From an uncultured Rickettsiales bacterium (GTDB lineage Bacteria > Pseudomonadota > Alphaproteobacteria > Rickettsiales > CAZNNM01): a DNA stretch of 64,000 bases. Location: assembly GCA_964574415.1 (NCBI GenBank), contig CAZNNM010000009.1, forward strand, positions 4,975 through 68,974, read 5' to 3'. A program made the position numbers and the translations under genes. The notes beneath the pieces are model-generated. The model made no database searches. It was not told the DNA's origin and worked only from the letters and a program-made list of their open reading frames with translations. Position 1 is the first letter of the stretch. Each line of letters opens with the position of its first letter. Of the stretch, positions 1 through 51,424 are shown one piece after another.

Positions 1-1720
1 CTATATTAATTCCACCACTTATACTCTTACTTATATCCTTATCGTTTAAGTGGGTATAGCTAACACTCCCAGAGTTAAACACCATATTCCCACCATCATG
101 GAAGATACCTTGGTCATCGTAAGTACCCTGCGCAACCACAGAACCAACCAGGTTCGTGTTCCCACTCACATTCCAAACCGTAGATTCCTTGCCGATGATG
201 CTAGTCTGATTCGCCGTAAACACACGATCCGTCTTGCTACTAGACGCACTGATCCCACTCCCAGTCGCCATACCAGGACCATACGTAAAGCTAACCCCAA
301 ACCCACTCGATTTACTATGGAACTGGTTCTGCAACGTGACCACATTCACATCCCCAATAACTCCAACGTCTACTTTATTAACATCCGTAACAACACCCAG
401 GAAGTCCGCACCATTCTGGCTCCTGATAGTGAGCGTACCGTCCGTGATGAGTTGCACTGGGCTATAGGATGTCCCTTTAGATTGGCCCTTACTACCTCCA
501 GCACTAAACGTCAACCCGCCAGCACCATAGCTAACCCCAATACTCGCACTGCTATTCTTACTACTACTCTGCGTAGCCCCAGCCTCAACGATCAGACGGC
601 CAACCCCAGAATCCAGCGTGATACCCTGCTTCGCATCAATAACAGCACCACCCAGCACCTGAGCACCGTGGTCACCCTTGATGATCACCTCTCCAGCAAC
701 GTTAAACATACTCGGATACAACTGCTGCCACTTCGTCGTGCTTTTGTTCGTTCCAAGCGTAATACCAACACTCGGCCCACCAAACAACCCAGCACCAAGG
801 CCAGAGCCGCCGTTAAACATCGATAACTGCGCTCCAACATTCACCAAACTCATCGCAGTACCAATATCACCCTTAGAGTTATTCAGCGTACGTAAGCTAC
901 TGAGGATCGGAGATTGACCAATAAAATCATTATCGCCCGTAAGGCTGTTCGTATTCAAACCCGCAGCGCCCAAAAACCCACCAGCGCTCGCACTAAAGCT
1001 TATTCCTGTCGAACCCTTCTTCAAGTAATAATCCAACAACCCAGCATCAACAATCGTCTGGTTCTTGCCATGCAATATTACATCACCAGTAGTCGTGTTA
1101 AACTGCGTAGCAGTAACACGTACATCATGCTCCGCCTCAAGCACAACACGATCACCATTAAATCCAGTCAGAGCAACCTCATGGCCATTGCTCTGCGTAG
1201 ATGAATACCCAATCCCAATGCCCATCCCACCGAAACCACTCTTCTTGGTTTTGGTCTCAACATGCGTCATATCCGTAATAACATCATGGCCTGCCTTCAG
1301 GTGGATCACACCACCCGTATCCCCCAGCAAACCAGCATTCACAGCAGATCCAAGCACCGTAATATCACCCGTCTGCGTCTGCATACTCACATCGCCATAG
1401 CCAGACGTTATCCCAGACGATTGGATAACCCCAGTCTCCTGGTAGCTCTTCTTAAACGTGCTCTTCTTATTGCGTGACACATACTTATCCGCAACAGCAA
1501 CAACATCGATGCTATTCTGCGCAAGCAGGCTTACATCACCATTCCCCGCAATCTCAGAACCGCGGATCGATATCGAATCTCCCGCCGCCATTGTTATCTT
1601 GCCGCCAGCAAGAACTGTAGAACCCGCAAAGCTGATCGGGTGATAGCCGCCCGCATTCGTGCCAGTGTTCTTAACAACATCATGGATGATCTGGCCCTGG
1701 CCAGAGTAACTCCACCTGCG
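1..1720 (-). pseudogene. 5'-truncated orphan copy of the fhaB/cdiA-like gene (continues past the left edge of the window)
   Basis: nt 1-1710 align colinearly with nt 3540-5250 of the full-length gene (offset 3539). Identity is roughly 80-90% by eye, with a perfect block 1092-1420 = 4631-4959. In the homologous minus frame, translation near 1700 reads YSGQGQIIHDVVKNTGTNAGGYHPISFAG, against GKGQILHDVVKNTGTNAGGYHPISFAG in the full gene. The frame is closed upstream by TAG (1721-1723) and has no obvious start. Confidence 0.7.
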
Positions 1721-1724
1721 CTAC

Positions 1725-2459
1725 TTAATCGCGCCCTAAACGTCTCAAGTTCTCACGATATTTAGCATTACTCACTAACCAATTCTGATATGCCTTAGAA
1801 GTAACTCGATCAACAGGCTTAAACTGAAGGCTTGCCCATATCGGCGCAAGCACTTCAGAGGAATTGGCATAATCTTTATATTCAGAACGCATTGTCTCTT
1901 TATAACTAATCTCAATCGGCGGGAAATCCTTAGGCTGATTGGGTTGATAACAAATAAAATCCTGCGAAAAACTTTTGGGCGCAGGAGGCCTAGGAGTATC
2001 TAAAATCTCTACTAATACACAACGCATACCCGCTCGTGTTATAGTACTAATAAAAATCTCACTGCTTTTGCGTAACTTCACGGTTCTTTTCGCTTCGTCA
2101 TTCTCTCGGCGAAGACGGCGCTCAAAACTTTCTGCGTTACTAAAACCACTAAACGGTGAAATCACAACACTAAGATTTCTCAGAGTGTTGCCGTCCTTAG
2201 AGGCAGTGAGATGAAAGCCTACATCATCAGGGTCTTTATATGTTACTACTTCCCAACTATTTCTATCAGGTGGCAATACTGAGAATCTCTCTCCCTCATA
2301 ACGCTTTCCAGGTACAACTTTCTCTCTTTGATATCCAGTGGAATGGAAACTCATTCCGCAAGCTGAAAGTAAAAGCACAATAGTAGATAAGAAAGTAATA
2401 TAACGCAAAACGAAATTCCTATCGATTAGGATGGCTAATAGGTGATGGAGTAGCTGCAC
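1725..2459 (-). CDS. putative lipoprotein; candidate immunity protein for the upstream C-terminal hydrolase domain
   Basis: 244-aa ORF lying directly after the exoprotein gene, with a 41-nt overlap. A lipobox-like LLLSAC sits near the N-terminus. A TTG at 2408 preceded by AGGA is an alternative start that removes the overlap. No family recognised. Confidence 0.6.
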   Translation of the reverse strand: MQLLHHLLAILIDRNFVLRYITFLSTIVLLLSACGMSFHSTGYQREKVVPGKRYEGERFSVLPPDRNSWEVVTYKDPDDVGFHLTASKDGNTLRNLSVVISPFSGFSNAESFERRLRRENDEAKRTVKLRKSSEIFISTITRAGMRCVLVEILDTPRPPAPKSFSQDFICYQPNQPKDFPPIEISYKETMRSEYKDYANSSEVLAPIWASLQFKPVDRVTSKAYQNWLVSNAKYRENLRRLGRD

Positions 2460-5400
2460 ACATCATACAAGGATAATGGGAATGGTCACTCCATTTGGTT
2501 GCTAGTAATGGCACTCGTAATACACTATATGCAAATTCTATAAGATTACCATTCATTCCAAGCCCCATACCTACGAAATCGCCTTGGTTAATTTGGATAT
2601 GAGCCTCTCCACCTGTGGCGGTATTAACAGCCTTTTGTAAAAAATACTCATTAATCGGCGCACCAGAAAACTGTACTTCACTACCTCCAAGCATATTCTT
2701 AGGTGTGTTATCCATCAACAGATATAACTGTGTTGCACCATTACTATGACCTGCTAACTTAAATGTAGCGGTAGGATTTTGCTCCCTAATAATTGCCTCA
2801 AACTCCCTATCCTGCAACACATTCGACGTCGGGAAAATACCCCCAAATAGTTTCAGCCACGTCGCCTCTAACACATCAGGTATCAACCCTTTTGTTGGAC
2901 TATACGCAATACCATAATTTCCATCGCTAATCCCCAATTGTGACGTGGCATTATTATCCGCTTCGCCGCGCGTATTATTAATTCCATTCCACGAATACGC
3001 TATAATCTCCTGAACAACTTCAGGATTATTACGAACCTCTTCCAAAGCATAGCTCTTTGTAGAACCATCTTTCGTGAGGACATACACACGATCACCTTTT
3101 ATCATCGTACCCGGCAATGATAATAATCCACCATTATTGCTATCAGCAGGGAATATATCCAATAACAATGTATTAGCATACGGAACTTTATCAAGTTGAC
3201 TTCCAACTGCGTATCCTTCTTGGGCCAACTCACTCGGTATCTCAGGTATTTTCGTCACTATCGTCGTCAGATTCGCACCTATCTTCTCGATGGTCCCAAC
3301 CGGATTGTTCACCATCTCCGGCGTAACCGTAATCGTCCCTCGCTGTACATCATGTTCTGTAATGATCTGTGAGCCATTTACGTCTCTATTGATACCGTCG
3401 ATGTTGCCTGCACCAAGCGTAATCTGCCCGTTCCCAAGCGTCGCCAACGTCAGCCCCTTCGTCGTGCTAAAGTCAATACTCAGCGTACCACTCCCACTCG
3501 TCTCCTTATCCTGCGGTGCCTGATTAACAGGGCGCTCACCTATATTAATTCCACCACTTATACTCTTGCTTATATCCTTATCATTCAGATGCGTATAACT
3601 CACAGAGCCACTATTGAAGACCATATTCCCACCATCATGGAACACACCCTGCTCATCATACGTACCCTGCGCAATCACAGACCCTATAAGATTCGTATTC
3701 CCACTAACATTCCAAACCGTAGATTCCTTCCCAATAATACTCGTCTGATTATCCGTAAACACACGATCCACCTTACTACTAGACGCACTGATCCCACTAC
3801 CCGTCGCCATCCCAGGACCATACGTAAAGCTAACCCCAAACCCACTCGATTTACTATGGAACTGGTTCTGCAACGTCACTACATTCACATCACCAATAAC
3901 ACCAACATCAACCTTGTTAACATCCGTAACAACGCCCACCAAATCCGCACCGTTCTGGCTTCTAATCGTCAGCGTACCATCCGTGATCAACTGCACTGGG
4001 CTATAACTTGTCCCTTTGGATTGGCCTTTGCTTGCTCCAGCACTAAACGTCAACCCGCCAGCGCCATAGCTCACACCAATACTCGCACTGCTATTCTTAC
4101 TACTACTCTGCGTAGCCCCAGCCTCAACGATCAGACGACCAACCCCAGAATCCAGCGTGATACCCTGCTTCGCATCAATAACAGCACCACCTTTAATTTG
4201 CGCGCCATGGTCACCCTTAATAATAACCTCGCCAGCAACGTTAAACATACTCGGATATAACTGCTGCCATTTAGTAGTGCTTTTATTCGTACCAAGCGTA
4301 ATACCAACACTAGGCCCACCAAACAACCCAGCGCCAAGACCAGCACCGCCGTTAAACATGGAGAGTTGCGCTCCAACATTCACCAAGCTCATCGCCGTCC
4401 CAATATCACCCTTGGAGTTATTTAATGTACGTAAGCTGCTCAATATCGGAGACTGACCAATAAAATCATTATCGCCAGTAAGGCTGTTCGTGTTCAGCCC
4501 AGCCGCACCAAGGAACCCGCCAGCGCTCGCGCTAAAGCTTATCCCTGTCGAACCCTTCTTCAGGTAATAATCCAACAATCCAGCATCAACAATCGTCTGG
4601 TTCTTACCATGCAGAATCACATCGCCACTCGTCGTGTTAAACTGCGTAGCAGTAACACGTACATCATGCTCCGCCTCAAGCACAACACGATCACCATTAA
4701 ATCCAGTCAGAGCAACCTCATGGCCATTGCTCTGCGTAGATGAATACCCAATCCCAATGCCCATCCCACCGAAACCACTCTTCTTGGTTTTGGTCTCAAC
4801 ATGCGTCATATCCGTAATAACATCATGGCCTGCCTTCAGGTGGATCACACCACCCGTATCCCCCAGCAAACCAGCATTCACAGCAGATCCAAGCACCGTA
4901 ATATCACCCGTCTGCGTCTGCATACTCACATCGCCATAGCCAGACGTTATCCCAGACGACTGTATAACACCCGTCTCCTGGTAGCTCTTCTTGAACGTAC
5001 TCTTCTTGTTCCGAGACACATACTTATCCGCAACAGCCTCAACAGTGATGCTATTCTGAGCCAGCAGCGACACATCTCCATTGCCAGCTAGCTCAGAACC
5101 GCGGATGGATATCGAATCCCCAGCCGCAAGCGTTATCTTGCCGCCAGCCAAAACCGTAGATCCCGCAAAGCTGATCGGATGATAACCACCCGCATTCGTG
5201 CCCGTGTTCTTCACAACATCATGAAGTATCTGACCCTTGCCAGAGTAGTTGAGGCTGCCATCCGCATTCACAGTAACGCCCGCAAGCTCCGTTACATCCC
5301 CGCCAGACACAATCGTCCCGGCCTTATGATGAATTAGCGCATCCGCAATCAGCATAACTCCGCCAGCGCCGCCTACCAGCTGGCCAGTGCCAGTTTGGAT

Positions 5401-8400
5401 AATCTGCTGTGGAGCAACACGACCGCCCTGGCCATTGAGGAACGTGTGTTCCGTCGTCTGAACACCGATGTTCTCGATTACCTTGCCTTTAACAGTCAGG
5501 CTATCCGTGCCTACCAGCTTGCCTGCATTTTTGACCAGATCTGTACCTTCAACATAGGTGACTGCACCTTTGATAACGCCAGTGCCAGCGGCTACTTCAT
5601 GCGTTACTACATCATCCTGCGCAAACATAAAACGGCCCATTTGCTGAGAACCTTGCTCTTGGCGCTTCTCCGTGATAATCGCAGCATTGTCGATGACCTT
5701 ACCCATTACCACTGTTTGGCCTTCGCTTTTAATCTTGCCGCGATTTTTCACCAAATCATCGCCGATAATCGTCAGATTACCGCCAGAGGTGATATTCCCA
5801 CCACCCAGCACTAAATCTTGGCTAGTCGATACTTCCTGCATTTTTGCCTGTGCAGGGAGATAGCCAAATTGGGCGAGATAGCGGTCAGTCGATGTTGAAT
5901 TACCTGCCGTCTGCGTCTTCGTTTTTTCACCCGTAGCTGGCTGGTTATCCACGACTTTGGCATGGATGAGCATATCACTGCCGGAACTTACATCCCCACG
6001 ATTAACAAAGCTGTTATCCGCCAGAATCGTTGCTGTACCACCCGCATGGATCGTACCAAGCTCATTGATCGTATCATTGGTTGTTGCCGTAACCGGAGCA
6101 GGCTGTTGATTAGCACGCAACATCATGCCAGTTGTGGCAGGTTTATTACCCGTTGCAAGCTCACCGCGTGTATTATAATTACGAATGTCACTGGCTTGCA
6201 TATAGAGATCGCCTGTTGCATCAATCTTGCCGCCATAATTGGTGATCGTGCCACTTTCTGCCACAAGCGCCACATCCTTACCACTGAGTTCGCCACGCGA
6301 TAGGGTTTTGCCACTCGTATCAGCAATATTACGGTTCTCAATGGTTTTACCCGAAACGTAGAGGCTGTTCTTGCCTTGAATCAGACCGCCTTGGTTGACT
6401 AAAGCGTTCGCAGCATTGACGCTGACATCATCACCTTTAATCACACCGCCTGTATATGTGCCATCCGCGAGCATGATGCGTTCGTTTTGAATGTCTTTAG
6501 CGTTCAGCAGCATCGTTGTGCCAGTGATTTTACCCCCTATGTTAGAGAGCGTGCCATTAGCTGCGATCATAATGGTATCGCCACTGATCGTGCCTTTTAT
6601 AGTACGGCCATCAGCAGTGACTACTGCATTATTGAAGACATTGTTTGCCGTAATGTCCATAAAATCGACGTTGATGGCACCACCTCTGTTTGACAGATCA
6701 CCCACATTCCCTGTCCACATTTGCGCTGAGATGGTTCCTGATAGTTTGGTTGGGTCGAGGAGGGATTCTGCGTAGTTCTGGATAGAGGCTACTTGGTTTA
6801 GTTTGCGCTGCTCCGCATTATACGCAGCTAGTTGGGTGATGTCCGATGGCGGGGTGGCTCTGGCTTGGGGAGCGGTGTTTGATGCTGTATTGCTCGTCGA
6901 TGGGCGGTATTGGTCGGTGTATTGATAGCCTTCGCCGATTCTTTGGCTTTCCTGATAGCGTGTCGTGCTGGTCATGATGCCGACGTTATTGGCTGTCGTT
7001 GTCGTATTCGTGTTTGGATTGGCATTTTGTTTTATAATCGCACCTTGCACAGCCGCTACGGCTGATGAGGTGGAGCGGTTGGTGATATTGGATACTACAC
7101 CGCTTACGTTGTTTGGGTTATTCGTGTTATTCGGTGCGGTTTGGAACGCGCTTAAGCTCGTGCCGTTCGGGGCTGAACGGTTGTCATTGATGATGGCGTT
7201 TACTTGGGTAAATAGGATAGTCGCGTTTAGCTGGCCGCCGCTGTTGTAAATCTTACCACGGATAAACTCCTGTGGTTTAGGCCCTACGCTGGTGGGATCG
7301 CATTGTGGATCGGCCGTACATTGGGCGTTGGCAGCCATCCATTGATCATAAGCAGGATTGCGGTGTTCCTTGGCAAGTACAATGCTGAGCAAGTTACCCG
7401 CCTCTAACCTGCCGCCGTTTTCGTTATAGACGTGGCCAGCACCGGTATTGCTAATACTCAGATTATTCCCAGCCTCAATCAAACCGCCTGGATTGTTAAG
7501 ATACGAGTTGTTGAGGTCGAGTTCCACCTGGATCGTCGCATCCCTAAGCGCTCTGATCTCACCACCATTAATATTACCAATGCTGTAATCCGTGCTGATA
7601 GAGAGGTCCCAGCCCGACTGGATCAAACCACCATCATTACGGATACCTGTGCCGCTTCTGTCTTGGTTATCGGCTACGATCGTCAGTGTGTCATCCGATT
7701 GCATCGTCCCCAGATAGTTATCCAGGTTACGGGTCGTGAGGTTCAGGAGTCCACCGGATTGCACTGTACCCTGATGGTTGTTGAAGGCAAACGTCTGGGT
7801 ATTATCGATACCCGATAAGCCTGTTCTGATGGTCATATCGCCACCTGAGAGCATCAAACCATTTACATTATTAGTGATATAATCCTGGCTGGTGACACTC
7901 ATGTTACTGCCCGATACCAGTATACCATTGCCGCTATTATCTATCCGCCCTTGGGCTTGCAATGTGAGCAGGCCACCTGCTTGATAGGTGCCGCCCTGGT
8001 TACCAATCCTGCCATTACTGATCGCTGTGATATTACCCACTGCCTGGATCAAGCCGCCATTACCATTACTCAAGTTGGTGGCGAGCGATTCGTTGCCGGT
8101 CGAGGTTAATGTGATATTACCGCCGGAGAGGATTTTGCCGTTATGGCTGTTATCATGCCAGGACGCATTCGAGGTTACATCACCACCCGCCTGGATGCTA
8201 CCGTCTTGGTTAGTGACGCCACCATTATTGGCAGAGAGGATGAGTGTGGTATTGGCTTGTAATGTACCGCCTGTATTAGCGATACCCTGGTTGCCAGTTA
8301 CGTGTAATGAGGAGGCAGAGGCGATGGTGCCATTCGTGTTCGTAATAGCGCCGTTGGAGGCGCTGATAGTAGCCGGGCTTGCACCATACGATGCTATCGT

Positions 8401-11400
8401 ACCGTTACTGTTATTAATACCATTCGTCGTAGCAATGTTTAGGCCATTGCCCGATTGGATCGTGCCGTTGCTATTGCTCAGTGAGTTTATGAGGAGGTTG
8501 ATAAGACCAGGCGTGATAATGCTCGCATTATCATTGATAAACCCGCCTTGGACTAATTGTAAGCTGATGCCGTTCTGTACTGCGAGTATCCCACCTGCAC
8601 TGTTGACCACATCGCCATTGGCACGCATCTGCAAACCTTGGCCTACTTGGATCTGGCCGCCTCGATTCTGTAACCGTAATCCGCTCTCCAGCACCATATC
8701 CTTACTGCTATACACCAAACCGCCAAGGAGCATATCGCCATTGCGAGTCTTTAAGCTCATGCCTTCAGGTGATAAGATACTGCCTTCTGTATCCATCGCA
8801 TTCGCCGCAATGCTTACTGTACCCGTACCCGACTGGATCATCCCGTCTGTGCCTAGATTGCTCCAATTGCCGTTGGTGCTGGTAATCTCTACACCCGCAT
8901 TGCCCGCCAGTTGTGCGCTGTCTGTCGTAATATCACCCGTCGCATTAAGTGTAAGCGAATCTACTGAGGTCACTTCACTGCGCGCCAGATTGAGCAAACC
9001 ACCGCTGTTCATGCTTACATCACCGCTCGATACGATCAACGCATCCTGTGCCGTTGTATTACCGTTGCTGTTGAGAGTGAAACCATCCTCACCCACCAAC
9101 GCCACCAAACGATTCGCTTCCACACTCCCCGCATCCGCCGTAACCTGCTTGGCCACCTGCAGCAAACCCTGGCTAGTGGCTTCAGCACCTAATACCGCAT
9201 CCGTAAGCGTCAGCAAACCGGAGGATTGTAATGCTATATCCTCACTCACTACCTGGCCACCGGAGAGGTTAAGATCACCCGATTGAGCCATAATATTAAT
9301 CGCATCAGGAGCATACCAGATGCTTCCCGTTTGTGTGATGCTGCTACCCGCCTGCGCCACTATATCCGTAGCAGACAGATAGCTCGTACCACCCGTGATG
9401 TTGCCTTGTGCTGCCAGGCTTAACGCTTCATCAGCTAATATCAATGCATTGCTAAGGAGCATATCATCGGCTGCTATCGTCGCCGCACCACCGCTGCGCA
9501 ACTCCAATCCCGTCAGATTCGCATCTCCTTGTGCAGTGACGTGCATATCACTCCCAGAGGTCAGCACACTCCCCTGCGCTACCAGATTGCCTGTCGTAGT
9601 GAGCGTCAGTACACCATCCTTGCTCGACACCATACCCTGGCTAATATCAAGATCACCATTAGCATTCAGTGTAAAATCCTTCGCAGAGGCCAAGATACCA
9701 CCGCGGTTATCACTAATCCCACCTAGGTTTAGTAATAAGGAGCCACTATCACTGGCCACCTCACCAATAAAGTTATCCAACTGCCCAGCTACAGTGAGCG
9801 ATACATCATTCACCGCACCAATCTGCCCCAGCGCGTTAATCAGATCACCGCCTGCAGTAATAGCAAGCGTGTCATTGGACTGTATCAACCCTAAACTGTT
9901 ATCAATAGCATCAGCCGCTTGTATCGCCGCCGCACCATGCGCATTGATCACGCCTTCGCGGTTGTTGAGCTTATCCGCCGCGCTGAGGTTGAGTGTGCTG
10001 TTGCTATGGATAAGACCACGCTCATTGATTACATCACCACGGCTAGCAATCGTGCTACTACCCGCACTCGTAATCGCTCCATCCGTATTATCCAATACGC
10101 CCGTCGTAATAGAGAGTGTGCCATTGCTATTGATAAGGCCGAATCGATTCGTAAGCCCATTCGCCACCGCTATCGATAGGCTGCTACCCTCCGCACTGAT
10201 AATCCCACTATCATTGTTCAGGCTACCTGCCGTAATCGATAAATTACTCAAACTGATAATCGACCCATTGCGATTATCAATCAACCCACCCGCCACCAGG
10301 CTCATATCACCACCGGATTGGATCAGGCTGCCTTCGTCCAGGTTAAGCAGATCACGCACCACATGCACACTTAACGCCCCCTGGCTCCCTAAATACGCCA
10401 CACCTCTATGCACCATATTAGCAGCACGCACATCCATCCCGCCAAAGGCGAACATATCGCTATCCTGGTTTAACAGTGAGCCAGCCAACTGGATATCGGC
10501 TTGGTTGCCTACCGTAATCCGTACATTATCGTTCGTAACATCCCCCGCACCGCGTATCCGCAGATCGCGCCCTACATCCACATAGCCGCTATTATGCATC
10601 GCACCGCCGACAGTAAGCGCCATGTCCTTACCCGCATCCAGCTTGCCCGTGTTGGTGTACGCCCCCTTTACATCAATTGCCACATCATCCTGGCCATCCA
10701 ATCTTCCCGTATTGGTAAAATCACCCGATGCAACAACCTTTGTATCTTCATAGCTATAACTATGCGAATGCTTCGTAACCGAACCCGTGCTGGTAATCTT
10801 GATATCCTTGCGTGCCGTAATAGAAGCCCTCGGCGCATCTTCTCGGCCCATCACGATATTACCATTGGCATCAATCGTAATATCCCCTGCATTGGCCGCC
10901 ATATCACCATCCAGCCGAACACCCGCGCCGGACTCCGTACTCATAATATGGATCTGCCCAGCCTGCATCGCACCCACAGCCGTCGCATCAATCGCAACCG
11001 CAGGAACAATACGGCTCGCATCTGCTGCCGCTCCCGTGCTCTCACCCGTCACCGTATTATACTGCTGTCTACCACCACGAACACCCAGCTTCCCCTGCGG
11101 ATTAACCCGAACCGCACCATCCACAATCACCTTACGCCCAATCAACTCCACATCCGAAGCCGTGCTCGCTCGTAAACCACCTGCCCCCACAGAAACCGTG
11201 CCACGCTCAACGCCTAAGCCAACCAGGTTACCTGCACCATCCACCTGCACAGCACCCGTGCTCAACACCACCTGCGGCGTCTTATAAAAACTACACCCAT
11301 CACACGTCACACCATTCGGGTTCGCAACAACAACCGCAGCTTCCTTCCCCACAACCTCCGTCATACCAGCCAAACGAGACGCATTACCACCCGTAACCTC

Positions 11401-39162: not shown

Positions 39163-39190
39163 GGGACGGCGAAACCGTCCCTTTTTGCTT
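39163..39190. terminator. GC-rich hairpin immediately after the 798-aa gene
   Basis: GGGACGG-cgaaa-CCGTCCC followed by TTTTTGCTT on the plus strand. On the minus strand, which is the coding strand of the flanking genes, an A-run precedes the stem and no U-tract follows it. Confidence 0.45.
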
Positions 39191-41585
39191 AGGAGATGAC
39201 ACAGTGGTCATGCTTCCGCTGCTTTTGTACTTTTTCGGTATGCAGTGACTGTGAGGAACTTGCGATACCTCCCATGGCTCCATTTGAAGATGATGCTTGC
39301 AGAGAAGGCTGCGGAGATTCATCAGGTGTCAACACTGAGACAGCAGGCATGGCACGGCTAAGCAGGGCAGATGGCGCATCCCTGCCTAATATTGCCCTCA
39401 GATTTCCCGATGCCCCCAATGCATCACGCGTTGCTTGTGCCAGCCTGCTTGCATCTTGTAGGGTGAGATAGGATGCCAGACTCTCCATAACAGATTGTGC
39501 CGTATGAATAAGAGGCTGCTGTACAGAGCGGGATTGCACATAAAAACTTGTCCAAACAGGGCCTGGCACATTACCCGAAACACCTAAAACAGAGCTATGA
39601 TATTCATAGGCTAGTTCTGTAGGCCTTATCTGTATCTGCTGTATAAAATGCATACATGTTGCAGGATATTTTTCTAATCTCGTAAGGAGATTTATATACG
39701 CCGCAGGATTCTCCTGTAACTGTCGAAGGAAATCAGCATATTTCGCATCATGCTCTTGTAACTGTACCAGGAAATCAGCACATGCTACAGGGCCCTTCTG
39801 TAGCTCGACAAGAAAATCAGCATATGTATCAGGGTAGCGCCCTAATATTGTGAGAAACTGAGTACATACACCATCCAGCGATAAAATATTTTCTTTTATT
39901 CCAGCTATTGTCCAACCTTTTGCTACTAATATGGATAGGCTGAAACATCCTCCCCCCAATATCTTTTCCAATGTTTCAAAGTCATCTTTATAACACTCTA
40001 TGATAAACTGAGGAGCAACACCTATATCTGCTAACAGCATCGCTCCATGCATCATCTTTCCGAGCAATACAGGTTGTGTTTTAGATAGCGATATAATGTA
40101 CTCATTAGGAACATTGAGTCTTTGCAAATCCTCAATAGCCCCAATCCCAGCAGCATATAAGATTTTACTCCAACCTGTTGGTTCTGTAATGCATCCATTC
40201 ACAAGCTGCGCATTAATGATGCCAAGTTCCTTGAGTACCCGAAGTCCTTCCAACCCATCTCCAGTAATCATTTGGCACAGGAGATGCGGGGTATGCATAA
40301 AAAGCTCGTGTATTTCCGGCATTCGGAATACCATAATTTGTAAGGATCGCAGCCCTCGCAACCCATCTTTACTTATCATCTGACACAGGAGATGCGGGGT
40401 ATGCATAAAAAGCTTTTGTATTCCCTCCATTGGGAATCCTGTATCTATTAAAGCTCCCAGTCCTTTCAACCTATTTTCTACAATTATCTGATAGAGCAGA
40501 TATGGCTCATTCACAACAAGATTTCGTACACCTTCCTTAGAAAGATATCCCTCTCTTAATATACACATTACGTACTGCCCAGCGTTGCTCATTATCTGCG
40601 CCAGAATATCTGGTTTCTCCGTAAAGAGTGTTTGCACCTCTTCTCCCGTAACCCCCATCTCCTGGAATACTTGCGGACACTCTAAGCTAATCGACGCCAG
40701 CATATCGCTTAAAAGAGCAGGGTTAGCTTTAAATAGATTCACAATATTATCATTATGAATACCCAATTGCTGCAATACCAGCACCCCATCCTGATTAACA
40801 TACCTTAATACATTAACAAAAGCGTATGGATTCGTTTCCAATACTTTCAGGATCGACCCTTTCCGCACACCTAAATTCTGCAATAATATGATGGTTTCCA
40901 GCCCCATGGGACTACCTATAGAAACGAATAGTGTTATATCCGTCTGAAACACGCCTGTAATCGTTTTATTATATACCCCTAATGCTCTGAATGCTATAAG
41001 ACCATCTAATAGTTTTTCATATGACAGCCTTGAATTCTCCATAAGCACATGAAAAATATCTAACGGAGAGATGCCAATATCCTGAAACCCCCGCAACTCC
41101 CCTTGTTCTACTTTAGATACCAGCGCCTTTAACAATGAATAGAGATGCCGAGCATCCTGTTGGTACCATTGCTCAATCTGGCCCTTCGTAGCTCCCCAGC
41201 TATGCAACACCCAAAATCCTTCCAGCTGAGAACGCCATCTTTGTTGATTGGCAGAATCACGCACAATCTTCTCCAGTACCTCACTCAGAAATACGGGAGC
41301 CTCGCGAAACAACTCACCTACCTGTTCAATACTCACACCAGCATCACGCAATTGCTTTAATTCACCAGCATACTTAACTATCTTACTAAAGAGTTGGTCA
41401 TACTTAGAAAACAGCGCAATAATATCATCGCGATTAATTCCCGCACCCTCTAATGCTTGAAGTACCCCCTGTCTCCTATACCCATCCATCGCCTCCGGCC
41501 ATTCTCTGACTGGATTCTGTACAGGGGTGACTGGCGCGGTAGCAGAAGATGAGGCAGTAGGCGTGTTTTTTGTTTTTTTAGGCAT
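39189..41585 (-). CDS. mTERF-like repeat protein (eukaryote-like effector candidate)
   Basis: 798-aa ORF made of more than 12 consecutive ~36-aa units of the form LxxLG(I/V)xxxxIxxLFxxxPxLLxxMxxxxxxxxxx, for example LQQLGIHNDNIVNLFKANPALLSDML and LIDTGFPMEGIQKLFMHTPHLLCQMI. Five or six ~12-aa YADFLxxLQxxP units follow. The C-terminus has an F-box-half-like LASYLTLQDASRLAQAT. Confidence 0.6.
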   Translation of the reverse strand: MPKKTKNTPTASSSATAPVTPVQNPVREWPEAMDGYRRQGVLQALEGAGINRDDIIALFSKYDQLFSKIVKYAGELKQLRDAGVSIEQVGELFREAPVFLSEVLEKIVRDSANQQRWRSQLEGFWVLHSWGATKGQIEQWYQQDARHLYSLLKALVSKVEQGELRGFQDIGISPLDIFHVLMENSRLSYEKLLDGLIAFRALGVYNKTITGVFQTDITLFVSIGSPMGLETIILLQNLGVRKGSILKVLETNPYAFVNVLRYVNQDGVLVLQQLGIHNDNIVNLFKANPALLSDMLASISLECPQVFQEMGVTGEEVQTLFTEKPDILAQIMSNAGQYVMCILREGYLSKEGVRNLVVNEPYLLYQIIVENRLKGLGALIDTGFPMEGIQKLFMHTPHLLCQMISKDGLRGLRSLQIMVFRMPEIHELFMHTPHLLCQMITGDGLEGLRVLKELGIINAQLVNGCITEPTGWSKILYAAGIGAIEDLQRLNVPNEYIISLSKTQPVLLGKMMHGAMLLADIGVAPQFIIECYKDDFETLEKILGGGCFSLSILVAKGWTIAGIKENILSLDGVCTQFLTILGRYPDTYADFLVELQKGPVACADFLVQLQEHDAKYADFLRQLQENPAAYINLLTRLEKYPATCMHFIQQIQIRPTELAYEYHSSVLGVSGNVPGPVWTSFYVQSRSVQQPLIHTAQSVMESLASYLTLQDASRLAQATRDALGASGNLRAILGRDAPSALLSRAMPAVSVLTPDESPQPSLQASSSNGAMGGIASSSQSLHTEKVQKQRKHDHCVIS

Positions 41586-43048: not shown

Positions 43049-43783
43049 CTAAAACATTACACGTAAACCCACGCTCGCAACGGCACTATCACGGTTTTCA
43101 CCAGACTGTTTTGCCATACGCGCGGTTTCACCAAAAGTGCTTTCGTAGCTTAAATCAATATAAGGAGCGAATTTCCGAGTAAATTCATAACGGGTTTGAA
43201 TACCGAACCCACCATTGGTGATACCCGCTCCGATCTCCTGCTCAGGCACATCCTGAGCAGAGAGATTGATCTCTAGATACGGCTGGGTGATAAGCTTCTG
43301 GGTAAGAAGAAAATCATTTTCCTGCCGGAGCCTAGCAGTTACATCGCCTTTATCACTGATAAAAAGATGGGCTTCGGTTTCAAAGAAATACGGCGCCAGC
43401 CCTTCTACGCCCGCCACCATATAGGTAGTGGATTCTGGCTGGTCATCGAAGCGTATGCCTATTTGTGCATCCCAAAATGCAGAGACATTACGGCTATACA
43501 TCGCCCAGTATTCCGCTTGTTCTGCCACCTCACCTTCCAGCTTTTCACCTTCGGATTTGAGCCATAATTTATTCTCATCCGTTCCAATCCACCCATCGAA
43601 ATCCCAAGAGTAGAGCGCACCATCACGGCTAGCGCCTATATCAGTTTCAAGCTTCATAGCATGGAACACCTCCCCGCCATGTTCTTTTTTATGCGCTTCA
43701 TCTGCGAAGGCTGCGAACGGGGCTAGGCATGCTATAGATATAGCAATACTATATAATTTAGTGCGCATGCTGAGGCCTTTCAT
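43049..43783 (-). CDS. copB: copper resistance protein B (outer-membrane CopB/PcoB family)
   Basis: Signal peptide MRTKLYSIAISIACLAPFAAFA, so the start is probably ATG 43768. CopB-type segments FDGWIGTDENKLWLKSEGE and WDAQIGIRFD are present, and the protein ends in a terminal F. Confidence 0.85.
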   Translation of the reverse strand: MKGLSMRTKLYSIAISIACLAPFAAFADEAHKKEHGGEVFHAMKLETDIGASRDGALYSWDFDGWIGTDENKLWLKSEGEKLEGEVAEQAEYWAMYSRNVSAFWDAQIGIRFDDQPESTTYMVAGVEGLAPYFFETEAHLFISDKGDVTARLRQENDFLLTQKLITQPYLEINLSAQDVPEQEIGAGITNGGFGIQTRYEFTRKFAPYIDLSYESTFGETARMAKQSGENRDSAVASVGLRVMF

Positions 43784-45386
43784 TCTCTGGTGCGTTTGGC
43801 ATATCTTTTGTATCCAATTTTGCTACCACAACTTTATTCATCATTCCTGCCATCATGTGATAGAGCAAATGGCAATGGAATGCCCATTCGCCCACCTCAT
43901 CGGCGGTAAGAAGCACAGAATAACTTTGGCCTGGCGGCACAATCACCGTATGTTTATTCGGAAGTTTCTCGGCTGGCTGGCCATTTTCCAGCTGCACGAA
44001 CATGCCATGGAGATGCATAGGATGTGCCATCATCGTATCATTCACAAATGTCAAACGCACACGCTCACCATAGCGCAACTGCATCGGGCCGGCTTCGGAG
44101 TATTTTTTGCCGTTGATCGTCCATATATAACGCTCCATATTGCCGCCTAAACGCACTTCCAGCGTACGTTCTGGCGCACGTGTATCTTTTTGGATGCCGA
44201 GATAGCGTAAATCGGCATAAGAGAGCGCTTTATCACCTTGCGGTGTACCAGCCTTGGCCCAACCGCTTTGCATGTCCTCGCGCATGGCTTGCATTTCTTC
44301 TGCACTCATGGCGCTATGATCCATGCCAGACATATCATGTTCCATACCCATATCCGTCATTGTAAGCAAGGCACGTGGACGCGGTGCTGGCACCTCGCCT
44401 TTCATATTTTCGCGCGGTGCAAGGGTGCTTAAGGCAAAGCCTGTGCGGTCGATGGGTTCGGCTACGATCGTATAGGCTTTATCTTCTTTAGGCGTGACAA
44501 CCACATCATAGGTTTCTGCTACACCAAAGCGGAATTCATCCACGCCAACCGGCTCAACATTCTGCCCATCGGCAGATACAACTTGCATTTTTAATCCGGG
44601 AATCCGCACATCATAAAATGACATCGCCGAAGCATTAATAAACCGCAAGCGCACACGCTCACCAGGCTTAAATAACGCTGTCCAGTTTTGATCAGGGGTT
44701 TTGCCGTTGGTGAGGAACGTATAGCCAGTAACATCCGATAAATCAGTAGGCAACATCCGCATCTCACCCCACATTTTGGCATTCTGCCAGGCTTTGCCGA
44801 AACCTTGATCTTTCACATCGGCAAAGAAATCTCCCACTGTACGGCGGGCATATTGATAATATTCAGCGGACATTTTAAGGTTCTTCATGATGGTGCTGGA
44901 TTCTTCCTCATGGAAATCGGAGAGTACAACAACATAATCCTTATCCGCTTTGATAGGATCCACATCTTTTGGTGTAATCACCATCGCACCATAAAGCCCA
45001 TCCTGCTCCTGCCCCATACTATGGGCATGATACCAATAAGTGCCGGCTTGGCGCAGGGTGAAACGATAGGGAAATGTCTTGCCAGGTTTTATCCCTGAAA
45101 AACCATTAAACCCTGGCACACCATCCATCTCACCCGGCAATAACAATCCATGCCAGTGGAGCGAAGTATCTTCCCTTAAATGATTTGTCACATTAAGCGT
45201 GACCTCTTCACCTTCCTTAAAACGGAGTGTTGGGCCTGGAATACTGCCGTTTATCGTCAATTTCTCGACAGGTTTGCCAGTAATAGTGACTTTCTCACGA
45301 GCAATATCCAACGCATATACACCTGCCCATGCGGGTGTAGCGAATAGGAGCGATATCGCGATGACTGTATTACGCATATATGTCAT
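43758..45386 (-). CDS. copA: multicopper oxidase CopA/PcoA
   Basis: Cu-site motifs HWHGLLLP, YWYHAHS, HPMHLHGMF and HCHLLYHMMAGMM, plus a Met-rich insert (MGMEHDMSGMDHSAMSAEEMQAM). Confidence 0.9.
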   Translation of the reverse strand: MTYMRNTVIAISLLFATPAWAGVYALDIAREKVTITGKPVEKLTINGSIPGPTLRFKEGEEVTLNVTNHLREDTSLHWHGLLLPGEMDGVPGFNGFSGIKPGKTFPYRFTLRQAGTYWYHAHSMGQEQDGLYGAMVITPKDVDPIKADKDYVVVLSDFHEEESSTIMKNLKMSAEYYQYARRTVGDFFADVKDQGFGKAWQNAKMWGEMRMLPTDLSDVTGYTFLTNGKTPDQNWTALFKPGERVRLRFINASAMSFYDVRIPGLKMQVVSADGQNVEPVGVDEFRFGVAETYDVVVTPKEDKAYTIVAEPIDRTGFALSTLAPRENMKGEVPAPRPRALLTMTDMGMEHDMSGMDHSAMSAEEMQAMREDMQSGWAKAGTPQGDKALSYADLRYLGIQKDTRAPERTLEVRLGGNMERYIWTINGKKYSEAGPMQLRYGERVRLTFVNDTMMAHPMHLHGMFVQLENGQPAEKLPNKHTVIVPPGQSYSVLLTADEVGEWAFHCHLLYHMMAGMMNKVVVAKLDTKDMPNAPENERPQHAH

Positions 45387-49981: not shown

Positions 49982-51424
49982 TTACTGCCAGAGATACAGC
50001 ACCGCATAACTACGCCATGGCCGCCAGGCTTGGGAGATAGACTCAGCTTGTTTAGCCGTCACCCCGCCTAAATGCTTGCGGATGGCGATATCTTCTTTGG
50101 GAAAAGCATCCGGCCATTGCAAGGCTCGCATGGCGATATAATGGGCCGTCCACGGGCCAATGCCTGGCAGGGCTATAAGTTTGGCCATAGTTTCATCAGG
50201 ATGCGCACCTGCTTCGAGCAGAAGCTCTTCTGCCACATAGGCTTTTGCAAGCGCAATAATACTCTCTGCACGCGTGCGAATAATGCCAAGCTTTGCAATA
50301 TCATCAACGGTGGCCTGCGCGATACGTTCAGGTGATGGAGTAAGAGAGGTGAGCGTTGTATAGGGCGTATGATAGGCCTCACCAAAGGCCTCCACAAACC
50401 GGCAGGCAAGTGTCGTTGCAGCTTTGACCGTTATTTGCTGACCAAGAATTGCCCGTATCGCCATCTCAAACCCATCAAATGCACCTGGCACGCGTAAGCC
50501 AGGATAGGCGCGGATACGTGCTTGCAAATGAGGGTCTTGCTGCAAATGTTCTGCAATACTATCCGGCCGTGCATTAAGATCAAATAAATGACGCACCCGT
50601 TGCAGCACAATTGGCAATACCGGCACTAACGAAGAGGCACATTCGAGCATAAGTGCATGTTTCTCAGGCGCGTGGGTTACTTTTATCCAACCGGTATATT
50701 CCCCAATCCGCACTGTTCTTGCATAAAAGCTTTCGGTTACAGACTCCACTTTTTGAATCATCCGCCCTTGCAGGAAACGGAGGATACTCTGCCAATCATA
50801 CGGTGGGCGATAGGCAAGCTGTACGGTAAAGGTATCATGCGTTGCCAACATGGGGGCATATTGGGTGACGGTTTTGCGTAGCTGAGTGGGGGGCATACGG
50901 TAATGGGTATGGAAAGCATCATTAAACCGCCTTACACTCGCAAAACCGCTGGCAAAAGCAATTTCGGTAATAGGTAATTGGGTTTCAGTGAGGAGTTGCT
51001 TGGCTAATAAGAGCCGTCTGGTTTGCAATAACTCGAGGGGAGAGACGCCTAATTCTTGTTGGATAATCCGCCGTAACTGCCGCGAGCTGAGTTGGAATTG
51101 CGCGGCAACTTCTTCTAAACCTTGGCCATCTTCTATCATGATGTGTTCCATGCGTTGCATCATAGACTGAGCAATACGTTGCATATCATCCACAGGCGCA
51201 GCGCCTGGCGCTAATTCGGGGCGGCAACGTAAACAGGGGCGAAAACCCACTTTCTCTGCACGTTCTGGCGAGGAGAAAAACAAACAATTTTCCTGTTTTG
51301 GCGTTCTAGCAGGGCAGATAGGCCTGCAATAGATATGAGTTGAAGTTACGCCCACAAAAAATAATCCATCAAAACGCGGATCACGGGATTTTAGGGCGTT
51401 ATAGGCTATAGTAGGGTCAATCAT
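49982..51424 (-). CDS. Ada-like Zn-finger/AraC regulator fused to AlkA-type DNA-3-methyladenine glycosylase II
   Basis: N-terminal Ada Zn-binding motif (YCRPICPARTPKQENCLFF...GFRPCLRCRPE), an AraC HTH (IAFASGFASVRRFNDAF), and a C-terminal HhH-GPD region (LIALPGIGPWTAHYIAMRAL...PDAFPKED). Confidence 0.85.
   Translation of the reverse strand: MIDPTIAYNALKSRDPRFDGLFFVGVTSTHIYCRPICPARTPKQENCLFFSSPERAEKVGFRPCLRCRPELAPGAAPVDDMQRIAQSMMQRMEHIMIEDGQGLEEVAAQFQLSSRQLRRIIQQELGVSPLELLQTRRLLLAKQLLTETQLPITEIAFASGFASVRRFNDAFHTHYRMPPTQLRKTVTQYAPMLATHDTFTVQLAYRPPYDWQSILRFLQGRMIQKVESVTESFYARTVRIGEYTGWIKVTHAPEKHALMLECASSLVPVLPIVLQRVRHLFDLNARPDSIAEHLQQDPHLQARIRAYPGLRVPGAFDGFEMAIRAILGQQITVKAATTLACRFVEAFGEAYHTPYTTLTSLTPSPERIAQATVDDIAKLGIIRTRAESIIALAKAYVAEELLLEAGAHPDETMAKLIALPGIGPWTAHYIAMRALQWPDAFPKEDIAIRKHLGGVTAKQAESISQAWRPWRSYAVLYLWQ

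What the first reader, a model, noticed from the sequence alone, without database searches (positions are those of the whole stretch)
1..5250. Orphan 5'-truncated fhaB/cdiA copy downstream of the exoprotein-lipoprotein pair, with a 329-bp gene-conversion patch
- On the minus strand the order is the full-length exoprotein gene, then the lipoprotein gene, then a start-less copy of exoprotein codons ~2190-2756 that continues beyond the window.
- This is the arrangement of cdiA-CT/cdiI orphan modules.
- Identity between the two copies is mosaic, at roughly 80-90% overall by eye, with 1092-1420 perfectly identical to 4631-4959. That implies ongoing recombination between them.
- The orphan presumably ends in a different C-terminal domain with its own immunity gene to the left of the window.
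- No TpsB/CdiB transporter gene flanks the locus on the right. It may lie further downstream on the left, as in the Burkholderia-type cdiAIB order.
Basis: partly seen in the sequence, partly recalled or inferred. Interest (0 to 1): 0.6.

Follow-up and report, generated by a model that had tools for sequence, protein, structure and literature searches.

The report
Silent toxin cassette behind secreted exoprotein
A bacterial gene for a huge secreted "contact-killing" protein and its small protective lipoprotein gene is followed by a start-less spare copy of the gene's tail; this is a known way for bacteria to store and swap toxin tips, here in a poorly sampled lineage with an uncharacterised esterase/lipase-like toxin.

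Summary
On the minus strand lie a 3,123-3,129-aa TpsA exoprotein gene (11808/11790..2419), a lipoprotein gene (2408..1725), an in-frame TAG (1723..1721), then an open frame (1720..1 and beyond). That frame copies exoprotein codons 2188-2757 without gaps (offset 3,539 nt, 89% identity). Window 1092-1420 equals 4631-4959 exactly; 20,000 codon-aware shuffles gave at most 125.

The reading as an orphan cdiA-CT/tpsC-type cassette holds, but one prediction fails. The orphan's full product was recovered from a protein database (P0001, 906 aa, same 87.8-kb contig). It ends in the same toxin domain as the main gene (88% identical), not a different one.

The same contig also encodes a 59%-identical paralogue of the lipoprotein (P0006). 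It also encodes a second truncated copy with a different, Tle1-like DUF2235 tip (P0002).

The shared tip is a rare alpha/beta-hydrolase domain with invariant Ser, Asp and His, and its model resembles cutinases. An independent assembly (L002) has the same lipoprotein-to-orphan junction and is a mosaic of these alleles.

No TpsB gene lies in the window. The left flank DNA could not be retrieved. This is a new member of a known kind.

The parts
2419..11808 (-). Full-length TpsA/CdiA-like exoprotein gene (3,129 aa from GTG 11808; 3,123 aa from ATG 11790 as called in NCBI, P0003).
   Evidence: ORF list. Pfam TPS domain PF05860 at residues 67-319 (E 1.6e-41) and Fil_haemagg_2 PF13332. TIGR01901 and TIGR01731.
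3313..3396 (-). Pre-toxin boundary GINRDVNGSQIITEHDVQRGTITVTPEM (residues 2805-2832). It takes the place of VENN.
   Evidence: Orphan 2 (P0002) matches the other two copies up to about 15 residues past this motif (through PVGTV.KIG.NL), then differs. An (L/I/V)NRD...Q.I motif recurs before the same CT family in unrelated TpsA proteins. Coordinates.
2422..3324 (-). C-terminal toxin region CT1a. It is an alpha/beta-hydrolase domain with GHSNG at residues 3020-3024 (window 2751..2737).
   Evidence: No Pfam or PDB sequence hit. 49 family representatives in 1.84 billion proteins. Invariant NG, HS.G, D and H. AF2 pLDDT 84.7. Best Foldseek PDB hits are cutinases, E 3e-4.
1725..2408 (-). Lipoprotein gene, the presumed immunity gene (227 aa, TTG start, lipobox LLSAC; the mechanical ORF extends to GTG 2459).
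   Evidence: Sequence. Exact match to P0004. Homologues sit directly after the same CT family in L001, L002 and L003. AF2 pLDDT 83.5, PsbP/Mog1-like fold, weak match to Tli4/TplEi.
1721..1723 (-). In-frame TAG that closes the orphan frame on its 5' side, one base after the lipoprotein stop codon.
1..1720 (-). 5' part of orphan 1. The open frame has no start codon at its beginning (first ATG at 1591). It copies exoprotein codons 2188-2757 and continues left of the window to give at least 949 codons.
   Evidence: Pfam Fil_haemagg_2 E 4e-23. P0001 is 100% identical over 530 aa. dN/dS 0.06, dS 0.49.
3540..5248 (-). Segment of the full-length gene that the orphan duplicates (offset 3,539 nt, no gaps).
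1092..1420 (.). Exact 329-nt tract in the orphan, the putative gene-conversion patch.
   Evidence: Shuffle test (maximum 125 in 20,000). pS = 0 here against 0.25-0.59 in the flanks.
4631..4959 (.). Partner of the exact 329-nt tract in the full-length gene.
537..652 (.). Second near-identical tract (1 mismatch in 116 nt; partner 4076-4191).

Best explanation
This is the distal end of a two-partner-secretion (CDI-type) polymorphic toxin locus.

The main system:
- The expressed gene encodes a ~3,100-aa TpsA whose last ~300 residues form a Ser-Asp-His alpha/beta-hydrolase toxin (CT1a).
- The lipoprotein gene that overlaps its stop region is the presumed cognate immunity gene. A lipoprotein is exported, so the toxin probably acts in the target's cell envelope. 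This step is inferred.

The orphan:
- Window 1720..1 is the first of at least two silent cassettes. It is a 5'-truncated tpsA segment starting at codon 2188, with no start codon, signal peptide or TPS domain, so it cannot be exported on its own.
- It carries an allelic variant of the same toxin (CT1b, 88% identical). The differences cluster around the catalytic serine.
- It is probably followed by its own diverged lipoprotein (P0006, 59% identical to the first), then by a second cassette with a Tle1-like DUF2235 tip (P0002).

How it likely works:
- The ~1.7 kb or more of shaft homology lets RecA-type recombination act between the cassette and the expressed gene.
- Non-reciprocal exchange leaves patches such as the exact 329-nt tract.
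- A single crossover between these direct repeats would fuse the expressed gene to CT1b and delete CT1a with its immunity gene, switching the toxin.
- Meanwhile the downstream immunity genes, which have their own start signals, could protect against neighbours that use those toxins.

Shown: gene order, truncation, homology, the exact tract, the orphan's C-terminus, the paralogues on the same contig, and the junction in a second assembly.
Inferred: toxicity, immunity, site of action, silence of the cassette, and adjacency and order to the left of the window.
For: Family and architecture:
- TPS domain and FHA repeats in the full-length protein.
- The orphan frame is closed by TAG one base after the lipoprotein stop, and its first ATG lies 43 codons in.
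- The repeat is gap-free at 89% identity with a 329-nt exact run, against a shuffle maximum of 125.
- Mismatches fall 27/11/144 by codon position, dN/dS is 0.06, and at least 949 codons stay open despite dS 0.49.

The rest of the array:
- P0001 (orphan 1 product), P0002 (second truncated copy, PF09994 at 59 bits against a cut-off of 27), P0003 (full-length) and the lipoproteins P0004 and P0006 all report a longest contig of 87,806 nt from NCBI.
- P0002's tip is absent from the window.

Toxin and immunity:
- The CT family sits at the C-terminus of at least six other full-length TPS-domain proteins and of further FHA-repeat proteins without a TPS-domain hit.
- It has invariant NG, HS.G, D and H. 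Its confident model best matches cutinases.
- Lipoprotein homologues directly follow this CT in three other contigs, and their divergence tracks CT divergence.

Recombination:
- L002, an independent assembly, has the same lipoprotein-stop-to-orphan junction. It is 98-99% identical from mid-lipoprotein through the junction but ~70% identical in the lipoprotein's 5' part.
- This matches the 'cassette + immunity ORF + 5' end of next cassette' recombination unit of Arenas et al. 2013 (PMC3848433).
- Orphans that lack translation initiation signals are described by Poole et al. 2011 (PMC3150448).
Against: - No TpsB/CdiB gene lies in the 64-kb window, so a working secretion pair is not shown.
- No PT-VENN or DUF637 hit was found.
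- Orphan 1's tip is the same domain as the main gene's, so a switch would change allele, not toxin type. The arrangement is also what a plain tandem duplication of [3' tpsA + tpsI] would give.
- The low dN/dS may have accrued while both copies were parts of full-length genes in other strains, so it does not prove selection on the cassette in place.
- That P0006 and P0002 lie left of the window and in that order rests only on a shared contig length. The DNA could not be retrieved.
- The fold match to cutinases is modest (TM about 0.5 on the target), and the substrate is unknown.
Confidence: 0.8

Rival explanations
1. It is a decaying tandem duplication. The segment [tpsA codons 2188-end + lipoprotein gene] was duplicated head to tail, and the second copy is an unexpressed remnant with no role. 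Occasional gene conversion is merely a by-product of the repeat.
For: - The repeat period (3,539 nt) equals one unit, and copy 2 starts exactly where unit 1 ends.
- The orphan's tip is the same domain as the main gene's.
- There is no start codon.
- De Gregorio et al. 2019 describe cdi orphans that are tandem copies of the resident CT/I region (PMC6336857).
Against: - dS of 0.49 with at least 949 codons still open and dN/dS 0.06.
- The lipoprotein paralogue has diverged to 59% while staying full-length with an intact lipobox.
- A second truncated copy has an unrelated tip.
- The same junction is kept in an independent, diverged assembly.
Confidence: 0.12
2. It is an assembly artefact. Two strain variants of one tpsA 3' end were joined in tandem in a draft or metagenome-derived contig, and the exact 329-nt tract is a collapsed or chimeric consensus.
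For: - The source is a draft contig of 87.8 kb.
- Exact internal repeats are error-prone in short-read assemblies.
Against: - The junction is specific: lipoprotein stop, 1 nt, TAG, then codon 2188. It is reproduced in a separately assembled Logan contig from another sequencing run (L002).
- The two lipoproteins are only 59% identical, which is far beyond strain-level variation.
Confidence: 0.03
3. The fragment is a gene in its own right. It is translated from the internal ATG at 1591, as annotated (P0001, 906 aa), and gives an intracellular protein with hydrolase activity.
For: - A gene caller produced this 906-aa product.
- The L-to-M change that creates the ATG is specific to the orphan.
- There is no terminator-like site between the lipoprotein gene and the fragment, so it is probably co-transcribed.
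Against: - There is no convincing ribosome-binding site before the ATG (GCTGGCGGCAAGATAACAATG).
- The product would be mostly beta-helical shaft with no export signal.
- The homology starts 39 codons upstream of that ATG, so the ATG is not the unit's boundary.
- Poole et al. 2011 found that the E. coli EC93 orphan CT was not synthesised although it was transcribed (PMC3150448).
Confidence: 0.05

Closest known systems
Orphan cdiA-CT/cdiI modules of CDI loci (E. coli EC93 and EC869, Yersinia pseudotuberculosis; Poole et al. 2011, PMC3150448)
   Same: - A 5'-truncated cdiA fragment without translation initiation signals lies directly after the main cdiA-cdiI pair in the same orientation.
- It keeps a variable length of upstream shaft homology.
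- It is followed by its own small immunity gene.
- Arrays of several modules occur.
- Some orphans are related to the adjacent main CT.
   Different: - There is no VENN motif or PT-VENN domain; the boundary is an NRD...TPEM motif.
- The retained shaft homology is long (at least 620 codons upstream of the boundary).
- The tips are alpha/beta hydrolases with lipoprotein partners, not the nucleases, pore-formers and cytoplasmic immunity proteins studied so far.
- cdiB is not upstream of cdiA.
tpsC cassettes and IORFs of Neisseria meningitidis TPS islands (Arenas et al. 2013, PMC3848433)
   Same: - N-terminally truncated tpsA homologues are interspersed with immunity ORFs downstream of tpsA.
- The recombination unit is cassette + IORF + 5' region of the next cassette, which is the pattern seen between L002 and the window.
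   Different: - tpsC cassettes carry entirely different C-termini, whereas orphan 1 here carries an 88%-identical allele.
- Neisseria has tpsB upstream and DNA uptake sequences; neither was seen here.
Acinetobacter type-II cdi orphan regions (De Gregorio et al. 2019, PMC6336857)
   Same: - Orphan regions include tandem copies of the resident CT/I pair.
- Alternative pre-toxin modules replace PT-VENN.
   Different: The pre-toxin motif (PT-LPEN there) and the toxin types differ, and the lineage is unrelated.
Burkholderia-type bcpAIOB/cdiAIB loci (reviewed in PMC9086364)
   Same: The transporter gene is not upstream of the exoprotein gene, and a lipoprotein gene lies in the locus.
   Different: - The lipoprotein here immediately follows the toxin tip and varies with it, as an immunity gene would. 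This is unlike the accessory BcpO, which follows bcpI.
- Whether tpsB lies downstream is unknown.
T6SS lipase effectors Tle1-Tle4 with periplasmic Tli immunity proteins (own knowledge; PF09994; PDB 4r1d and 5h7z)
   Same: - Orphan 2's tip hits the Tle1-like catalytic domain.
- CT1 is a GxSxG Ser-Asp-His hydrolase.
- The partner is an exported lipoprotein whose model weakly resembles Tli4/TplEi.
   Different: - Delivery is by a TpsA shaft, not T6SS.
- CT1 has no sequence match to any Tle family in Pfam.
- Lipase activity is untested.
Tox-ABhydrolase-2 of Zhang et al. 2012 (PMC3482391)
   Same: - The listed signature NG, [DE], [KR], HSxG, D, H matches the order of invariant residues in CT1.
- That family is reported on T5SS proteins with filamentous-haemagglutinin repeats.
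   Different: - The reported immunity partner is Imm-SUKH, not a lipoprotein.
- No profile was available, so identity of the two families was not tested.

Membership tests
CDI / TpsA polymorphic toxin system (CdiB-CdiA-CdiI) | N-terminal TPS secretion domain | tested here: met
   PF05860 at residues 67-319, E 1.6e-41 (143 bits, cut-off 33.5). TIGR01901 E 6.5e-16.
CDI / TpsA polymorphic toxin system (CdiB-CdiA-CdiI) | Filamentous-haemagglutinin beta-helical repeats (FHA-1 / FHA-2) | tested here: met
   PF13332 E 6.6e-11. TIGR01731 E 9e-18. PF05594 is just below its cut-off.
CDI / TpsA polymorphic toxin system (CdiB-CdiA-CdiI) | PT-VENN pre-toxin domain (PF04829) demarcating the CT | tested here: not met
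   No PF04829 or PF04830 hit at E <= 0.01. A different conserved boundary, (L/I/V)NRD...Q.I...TPEM, is present. Non-VENN boundaries are known in Burkholderia, Pseudomonas and Acinetobacter.
CDI / TpsA polymorphic toxin system (CdiB-CdiA-CdiI) | Variable C-terminal toxin after a conserved boundary | tested here: met
   P0002 is 88-98% identical to the other copies up to the boundary and unrelated after it (14/67 and 12/66 identities).
CDI / TpsA polymorphic toxin system (CdiB-CdiA-CdiI) | Cognate immunity gene immediately downstream of the CT | tested here: inconclusive
   The lipoprotein gene starts 10 nt after the tpsA stop. Homologues follow the same CT family in L001-L003. Binding and protection were not tested.
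CDI / TpsA polymorphic toxin system (CdiB-CdiA-CdiI) | Adjacent TpsB/CdiB Omp85-type transporter gene | tested here: not met
   No ShlB/POTRA hit in any of the larger window ORFs scanned with Pfam or NCBIfam. Up to 23.8 kb of the contig lies outside the window and could not be read.
CDI / TpsA polymorphic toxin system (CdiB-CdiA-CdiI) | Contact-dependent growth inhibition of neighbouring cells | not testable with these tools
   Needs competition assays.
Orphan cdiA-CT/cdiI (tpsC/IORF) cassette | 5'-truncated exoprotein fragment without start codon or secretion signals, downstream of and co-oriented with the main gene | tested here: met
   TAG 1723..1721, open frame from 1720, first ATG at 1591, homology from codon 2188.
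Orphan cdiA-CT/cdiI (tpsC/IORF) cassette | Shares sequence with the main gene upstream of the pre-toxin boundary | tested here: met
   89% nt identity over 1,709 nt with no gaps. 96.5% aa identity over 570 aa.
Orphan cdiA-CT/cdiI (tpsC/IORF) cassette | C-terminal toxin differs from that of the main gene (typical, not universal) | tested here: not met
   Orphan 1's CT is 88% identical to the main CT (265/301). The feature is met by the second truncated copy, P0002.
Orphan cdiA-CT/cdiI (tpsC/IORF) cassette | Followed by its own immunity gene | tested here: inconclusive
   The paralogue P0006 (59% identity) reports the same 87,806-nt contig.
Alpha/beta-hydrolase (esterase/lipase-like) toxin domain | Nucleophile elbow G-x-S-x-G with conserved Asp and His in Ser-Asp-His order | tested here: met
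   H168, S169, G171, D224 and H256 are invariant in 19 sequences at 24-90% identity.
Alpha/beta-hydrolase (esterase/lipase-like) toxin domain | Alpha/beta-hydrolase fold | tested here: met
Alpha/beta-hydrolase (esterase/lipase-like) toxin domain | Lipid or ester hydrolysis that damages the target cell | not testable with these tools
   Needs enzyme and toxicity assays.
Tle1-like DUF2235 phospholipase domain (orphan 2 only) | Match to PF09994 above the gathering score | tested here: met
   P0002 scores 59.1 bits against a cut-off of 27, E 5.9e-16, with partial profile coverage.

The most novel reading that the evidence does not exclude
The locus may be a CDI-type system whose payloads act in the target's envelope rather than its cytoplasm. 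Two unrelated alpha/beta-hydrolase tips (a rare cutinase-like family and a Tle1-like DUF2235 domain) sit on interchangeable TpsA cassettes, each neutralised by an exported lipoprotein. No experimentally characterised CDI toxin is of this type: a 2022 review of CDI effectors has no occurrence of the words lipase, phospholipase or hydrolase. The main and orphan copies would also form a natural allelic series. The toxins are 88% identical and the lipoproteins 59% identical, and the toxin differences are confined to three or four patches around the catalytic serine. That pattern would map the determinants of toxin-immunity specificity.
Probability: 0.45. Interest if true: 0.5.

Novelty: new member of a known kind. 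Interest (0 to 1): 0.3.

Why it matters
Orphan toxin cassettes behind CDI/TPS genes are an established phenomenon, so the arrangement itself adds little. Three things are useful here.
- It is a clean example in a lineage almost absent from public collections. Scans of GTDB species representatives, JGI metagenomes and plasmids found nothing.
- The exact 329-nt tract and a mosaic allele from a second sample give direct sequence evidence of recombination between the cassette and the expressed gene.
- The payloads are hydrolase domains paired with lipoproteins. This combination is predicted in silico but untested for type V secretion, and could extend CDI to envelope-acting lipase-like toxins.

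Tried and rejected
Leftward extension failed by every route:
- Exact-protein look-ups of the lipoprotein (three start variants), P0001, P0002, P0003 and P0006 all returned 'not on record'.
- Two genome-contig scans, with the lipoprotein and with its alignment, found nothing.
- Two metagenome-contig scans, with the CT alignment and the shaft alignment, found nothing.
- tblastn of P0001 against plasmids found nothing.

Other dead ends:
The exhaustive HMMER search worked instead.
- The CT and the lipoprotein have no Pfam, NCBIfam or PDB-sequence hits.

Considered and rejected:
- A second complete gene with its 5' end elsewhere is excluded by the in-frame TAG and abrupt homology start one base after the lipoprotein stop, reproduced in L002.
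- A functional plus-strand gene under the repeat is unlikely: antisense ORFs 50-826 and 3589-4260 have no family hits.
- No RNA element was found: no Rfam hit in 1-14000.
- No terminator or clear promoter separates the lipoprotein gene from the orphan.
- The lipoprotein as a BcpO-like accessory factor rather than an immunity protein is disfavoured, because it directly follows the CT in four loci and diverges with it.

Full report
**Observation**

On the minus strand the window holds a 3,129-codon ORF (11808..2419). The 244-codon mechanical ORF 2459..1725 follows it.
- The real start of that second ORF is almost certainly TTG 2408. An AGGAA lies 7 nt upstream and overlaps the exoprotein stop, and the product begins MRYITFLSTIVLLLSAC, a lipoprotein signal with a lipobox.
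- This 227-aa product is exactly database protein P0004.
- The lipoprotein stop is TAA 1727..1725. One base later comes TAG 1723..1721, and from 1720 a frame stays open to window position 1 and beyond.

- Window 1-1720 aligns without gaps to 3540-5259 at 89.0% identity.
- Homology starts abruptly at TACTCTGGC (window 1709), which is codon 2188 of the exoprotein. The window edge is codon ~2757.
- The longest exact run is 329 nt, 1092-1420 = 4631-4959.
- Shuffling the 182 mismatches within their codon positions gives a longest run of 48 +/- 10, with a maximum of 125 in 20,000 trials.
- Synonymous divergence is zero inside the tract and 0.25-0.59 in the flanks.
- A second tract, 537-652, has one mismatch in 116 nt.

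**What the genes are**

The long protein has a TPS secretion domain (PF05860, residues 67-319, E 1.6e-41) and filamentous-haemagglutinin repeats. It is therefore a TpsA of the FhaB/CdiA kind. It has no PT-VENN or DUF637 hit.

The fragment hits only the FHA-2-type repeat (PF13332, E 4e-23). Its first in-frame start codon is an ATG 43 codons in (1591). The full-length gene has CTT at that position, and no convincing ribosome-binding site precedes it. The fragment has no signal peptide or TPS domain, so it could not be exported by itself.

**The orphan's missing end**

The DNA left of the window could not be obtained (see tried and rejected). A protein search with the 573-aa fragment did return two products.
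- P0001 (906 aa) is 100% identical to the fragment. It is the fragment as called from ATG 1591.
- P0002 (694 aa) is 98% identical over its first 236 residues.
- Both report a single NCBI contig of 87,806 nt, as does the full-length protein P0003, which shares P0001's cluster.

The orphan frame is therefore at least 949 codons long. Its C-terminus is not a different domain.
- From the TPEM boundary it is 88% identical to the main gene's tip (265/301).
- It is identical over the last 22 residues and over about 140 residues at the start of the domain.
- The differences are confined to the linker and three patches flanking the GHSNG motif.

P0002 matches both copies up to ...GINRDVNGSQIITEHDVQRGTITVTPEMLTDPVGTV.KIG.NL and then diverges completely. 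Its tip hits the Tle1-like T6SS phospholipase catalytic domain (PF09994, 59 bits against a cut-off of 27). That tip is not in the window.

**The toxin tip**

The main tip (276 aa) has no Pfam or PDB sequence match. An exhaustive HMMER search of 1.84 billion cluster representatives found only 49 relatives at E <= 1e-3.
- Of the eleven relatives scanned with Pfam, six are full-length TPS-domain proteins of 2,100-3,000 aa carrying the domain at their C-terminus.
- Four are shorter FHA-repeat proteins, and one has DUF637.
- Upstream of the domain these proteins share an (L/I/V)NRD...Q.I motif, which plays the role of VENN.
- In an alignment of 19 members (24-90% identity) the invariant residues include N88-G89, H168-S169-x-G171, D224 and H256. 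This is a nucleophile elbow with Asp and His in alpha/beta-hydrolase order.

The AlphaFold model is confident (pLDDT 84.7, pTM 0.84). Its best PDB matches are fungal cutinases, the minimal Ser-Asp-His esterases (E 3e-4, TM about 0.5 on the target).

The invariant pattern matches the signature that Zhang et al. 2012 list for 'Tox-ABhydrolase-2'. They found that family on T5SS proteins with filamentous-haemagglutinin repeats and left its substrate open (PMC3482391). I could not test identity with that family.

**The lipoprotein**

It has no family hit. A homologue search found only four relatives.
- P0006 is 59% identical and reports the same 87,806-nt contig.
- P0005 is 85% identical (Logan contig L002).
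- P0007 is 43% identical (L001).
- P0008 is 37% identical (L003).

In L001, L002 and L003 the lipoprotein gene directly follows an ORF ending in the same hydrolase domain. Lipoprotein divergence broadly tracks tip divergence: 86%/85% for L002 and 50%/43% for L001.

Its model (pLDDT 83.5) is a PsbP/Mog1-like sandwich. That fold is common among periplasmic lipoproteins. There are weaker matches to TplEi/Tli4, the immunity protein of the T6SS lipase Tle4 (5h7z E 7e-3; 4r1d_B E 0.09).

Position, co-occurrence and co-divergence make it the best immunity candidate. Its export suggests the toxin acts in the envelope. Both points are inferences.

**Recombination**

The two copies differ mostly at third codon positions (27/11/144). 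dS is 0.49 and dN/dS is 0.06. They are therefore old relative to each other, yet the orphan is uninterrupted.
- The low dN/dS may date from a time when each copy sat in a full-length gene.
- The exact 329-nt tract must be recent, and gene conversion between the copies explains it best.

L002 comes from a different sequencing run and adds independent evidence.
- It ends with the same junction: lipoprotein TAA, G, TAG, CGCAGGTGGAGTTACTC....
- It is 98-99% identical to the window from about 2200 through the junction, but ~70% identical in the 5' quarter of the lipoprotein gene, and patchy across the tip.
- At the protein level, P0005 has the signal peptide of P0006 and the body of P0004.
- This matches the recombination unit proposed for meningococcal tpsC cassettes: cassette, immunity ORF and 5' end of the next cassette (PMC3848433).
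- It also rules out a private assembly artefact.

**Mechanism proposed**

The expressed TpsA delivers CT1a, and the lipoprotein protects the producer. The downstream cassettes are silent for toxin but probably co-transcribed, since no terminator-like site follows the lipoprotein gene. Their immunity genes have their own start signals.

The copies are direct repeats of at least 1.7 kb, 3,539 nt apart.
- Non-reciprocal exchange leaves patches.
- A single crossover would fuse tpsA to CT1b and delete CT1a and its immunity gene.

Orphans without initiation signals, their transcription, and expression of orphan immunity are documented for E. coli EC93 (PMC3150448). Orphans that are copies of the resident CT/I pair are documented in Acinetobacter (PMC6336857).

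**What remains open**

No TpsB is encoded in the window. The genes upstream of tpsA are two divergent XRE-type HTH genes. Up to 23.8 kb of the contig lies outside the window, so a downstream tpsB, as in Burkholderia-type loci, is possible but untested.

The order orphan 1, then P0006, then P0002 is inferred only from shared contig length and from analogy with the first unit.

**Verdict**

The orphan-cassette interpretation is right in kind but wrong in its specific prediction for this cassette. The phenomenon is well known, so this is a new member of a known kind. The modest extra interest comes from the hydrolase/lipoprotein payloads and the direct traces of recombination.

Noticed in passing
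window 11988-12888 (+): Two overlapping XRE/Cro-type helix-turn-helix genes (170 and 131 aa; HTH_19 E 1e-10 and 1e-11) lie divergent from the tpsA start. They are possible local regulators, sitting in the place where cdiB/tpsB would be in E. coli-type loci.
   Followed up: partly
window 13826-36108 (-): A run of very large ORFs (1,707, 1,395, 1,066 and 1,375 aa) has almost no family matches. The only hits are a weak glycosyltransferase-like stretch and a partial von Willebrand type D match. Their function is unknown.
   Followed up: no
window 39189-41585 (-): A 798-aa protein has an mTERF domain (PF02536, E 7e-17). This is a mainly eukaryotic organellar family and is unusual in bacteria. It could be a eukaryote-like effector and hints at a host-associated lifestyle.
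   Followed up: no
window 53343-63831 (-): A cluster of two FabF-like beta-ketoacyl-ACP synthases (PRK09116, PRK09185), an FAD-dependent halogenase/reductase-like protein, an RND/HpnN-like exporter, an acyltransferase and a glycosyltransferase. It looks like an aryl-polyene-type lipid pigment cluster; that reading is from my own knowledge and was not tested.
   Followed up: no
window 43758-45386 (-) and 49982-51424 (-): A multicopper oxidase (three Cu-oxidase domains) and an Ada/AlkA-like fusion of an AraC-type regulator with DNA-3-methyladenine glycosylase 2. These are ordinary chromosomal genes, so the window is chromosomal context rather than a plasmid or phage.
   Followed up: no
window 1-64000: GC skew is negative in every 4-kb bin (-0.10 to -0.29) at 40-51% GC, and nearly all large ORFs are on the minus strand. 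This is consistent with one replichore with co-oriented genes.
   Followed up: no
window 7988-10585 (+), 50-826 (+), 3589-4260 (+): Long antisense ORFs (up to 432 aa) lie inside tpsA and the orphan. They have no family hits and are most likely by-products of the repetitive, skewed composition of the coding strand.
   Followed up: yes
L003 1056-1748 (+): In a distant relative's contig, the lipoprotein homologue P0008 is followed by a second, unrelated predicted lipoprotein (230 aa, LFLCAC lipobox) and then a further ORF. This could be another immunity-type gene in an array.
   Followed up: no
exoprotein residues ~1760-1900 (window ~6100-6530, -): An Asn/Thr/Ser/Pro-rich low-complexity stretch in the middle of the TpsA. 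It lies where CdiA proteins carry their receptor-binding and linker regions. It was not analysed.
   Followed up: no
(tool behaviour): The word-indexed homologue search with the 276-aa tip returned no hit, although P0001 in the same database contains an 88-90% identical domain. Negative results from that tool should be read with care.
   Followed up: partly
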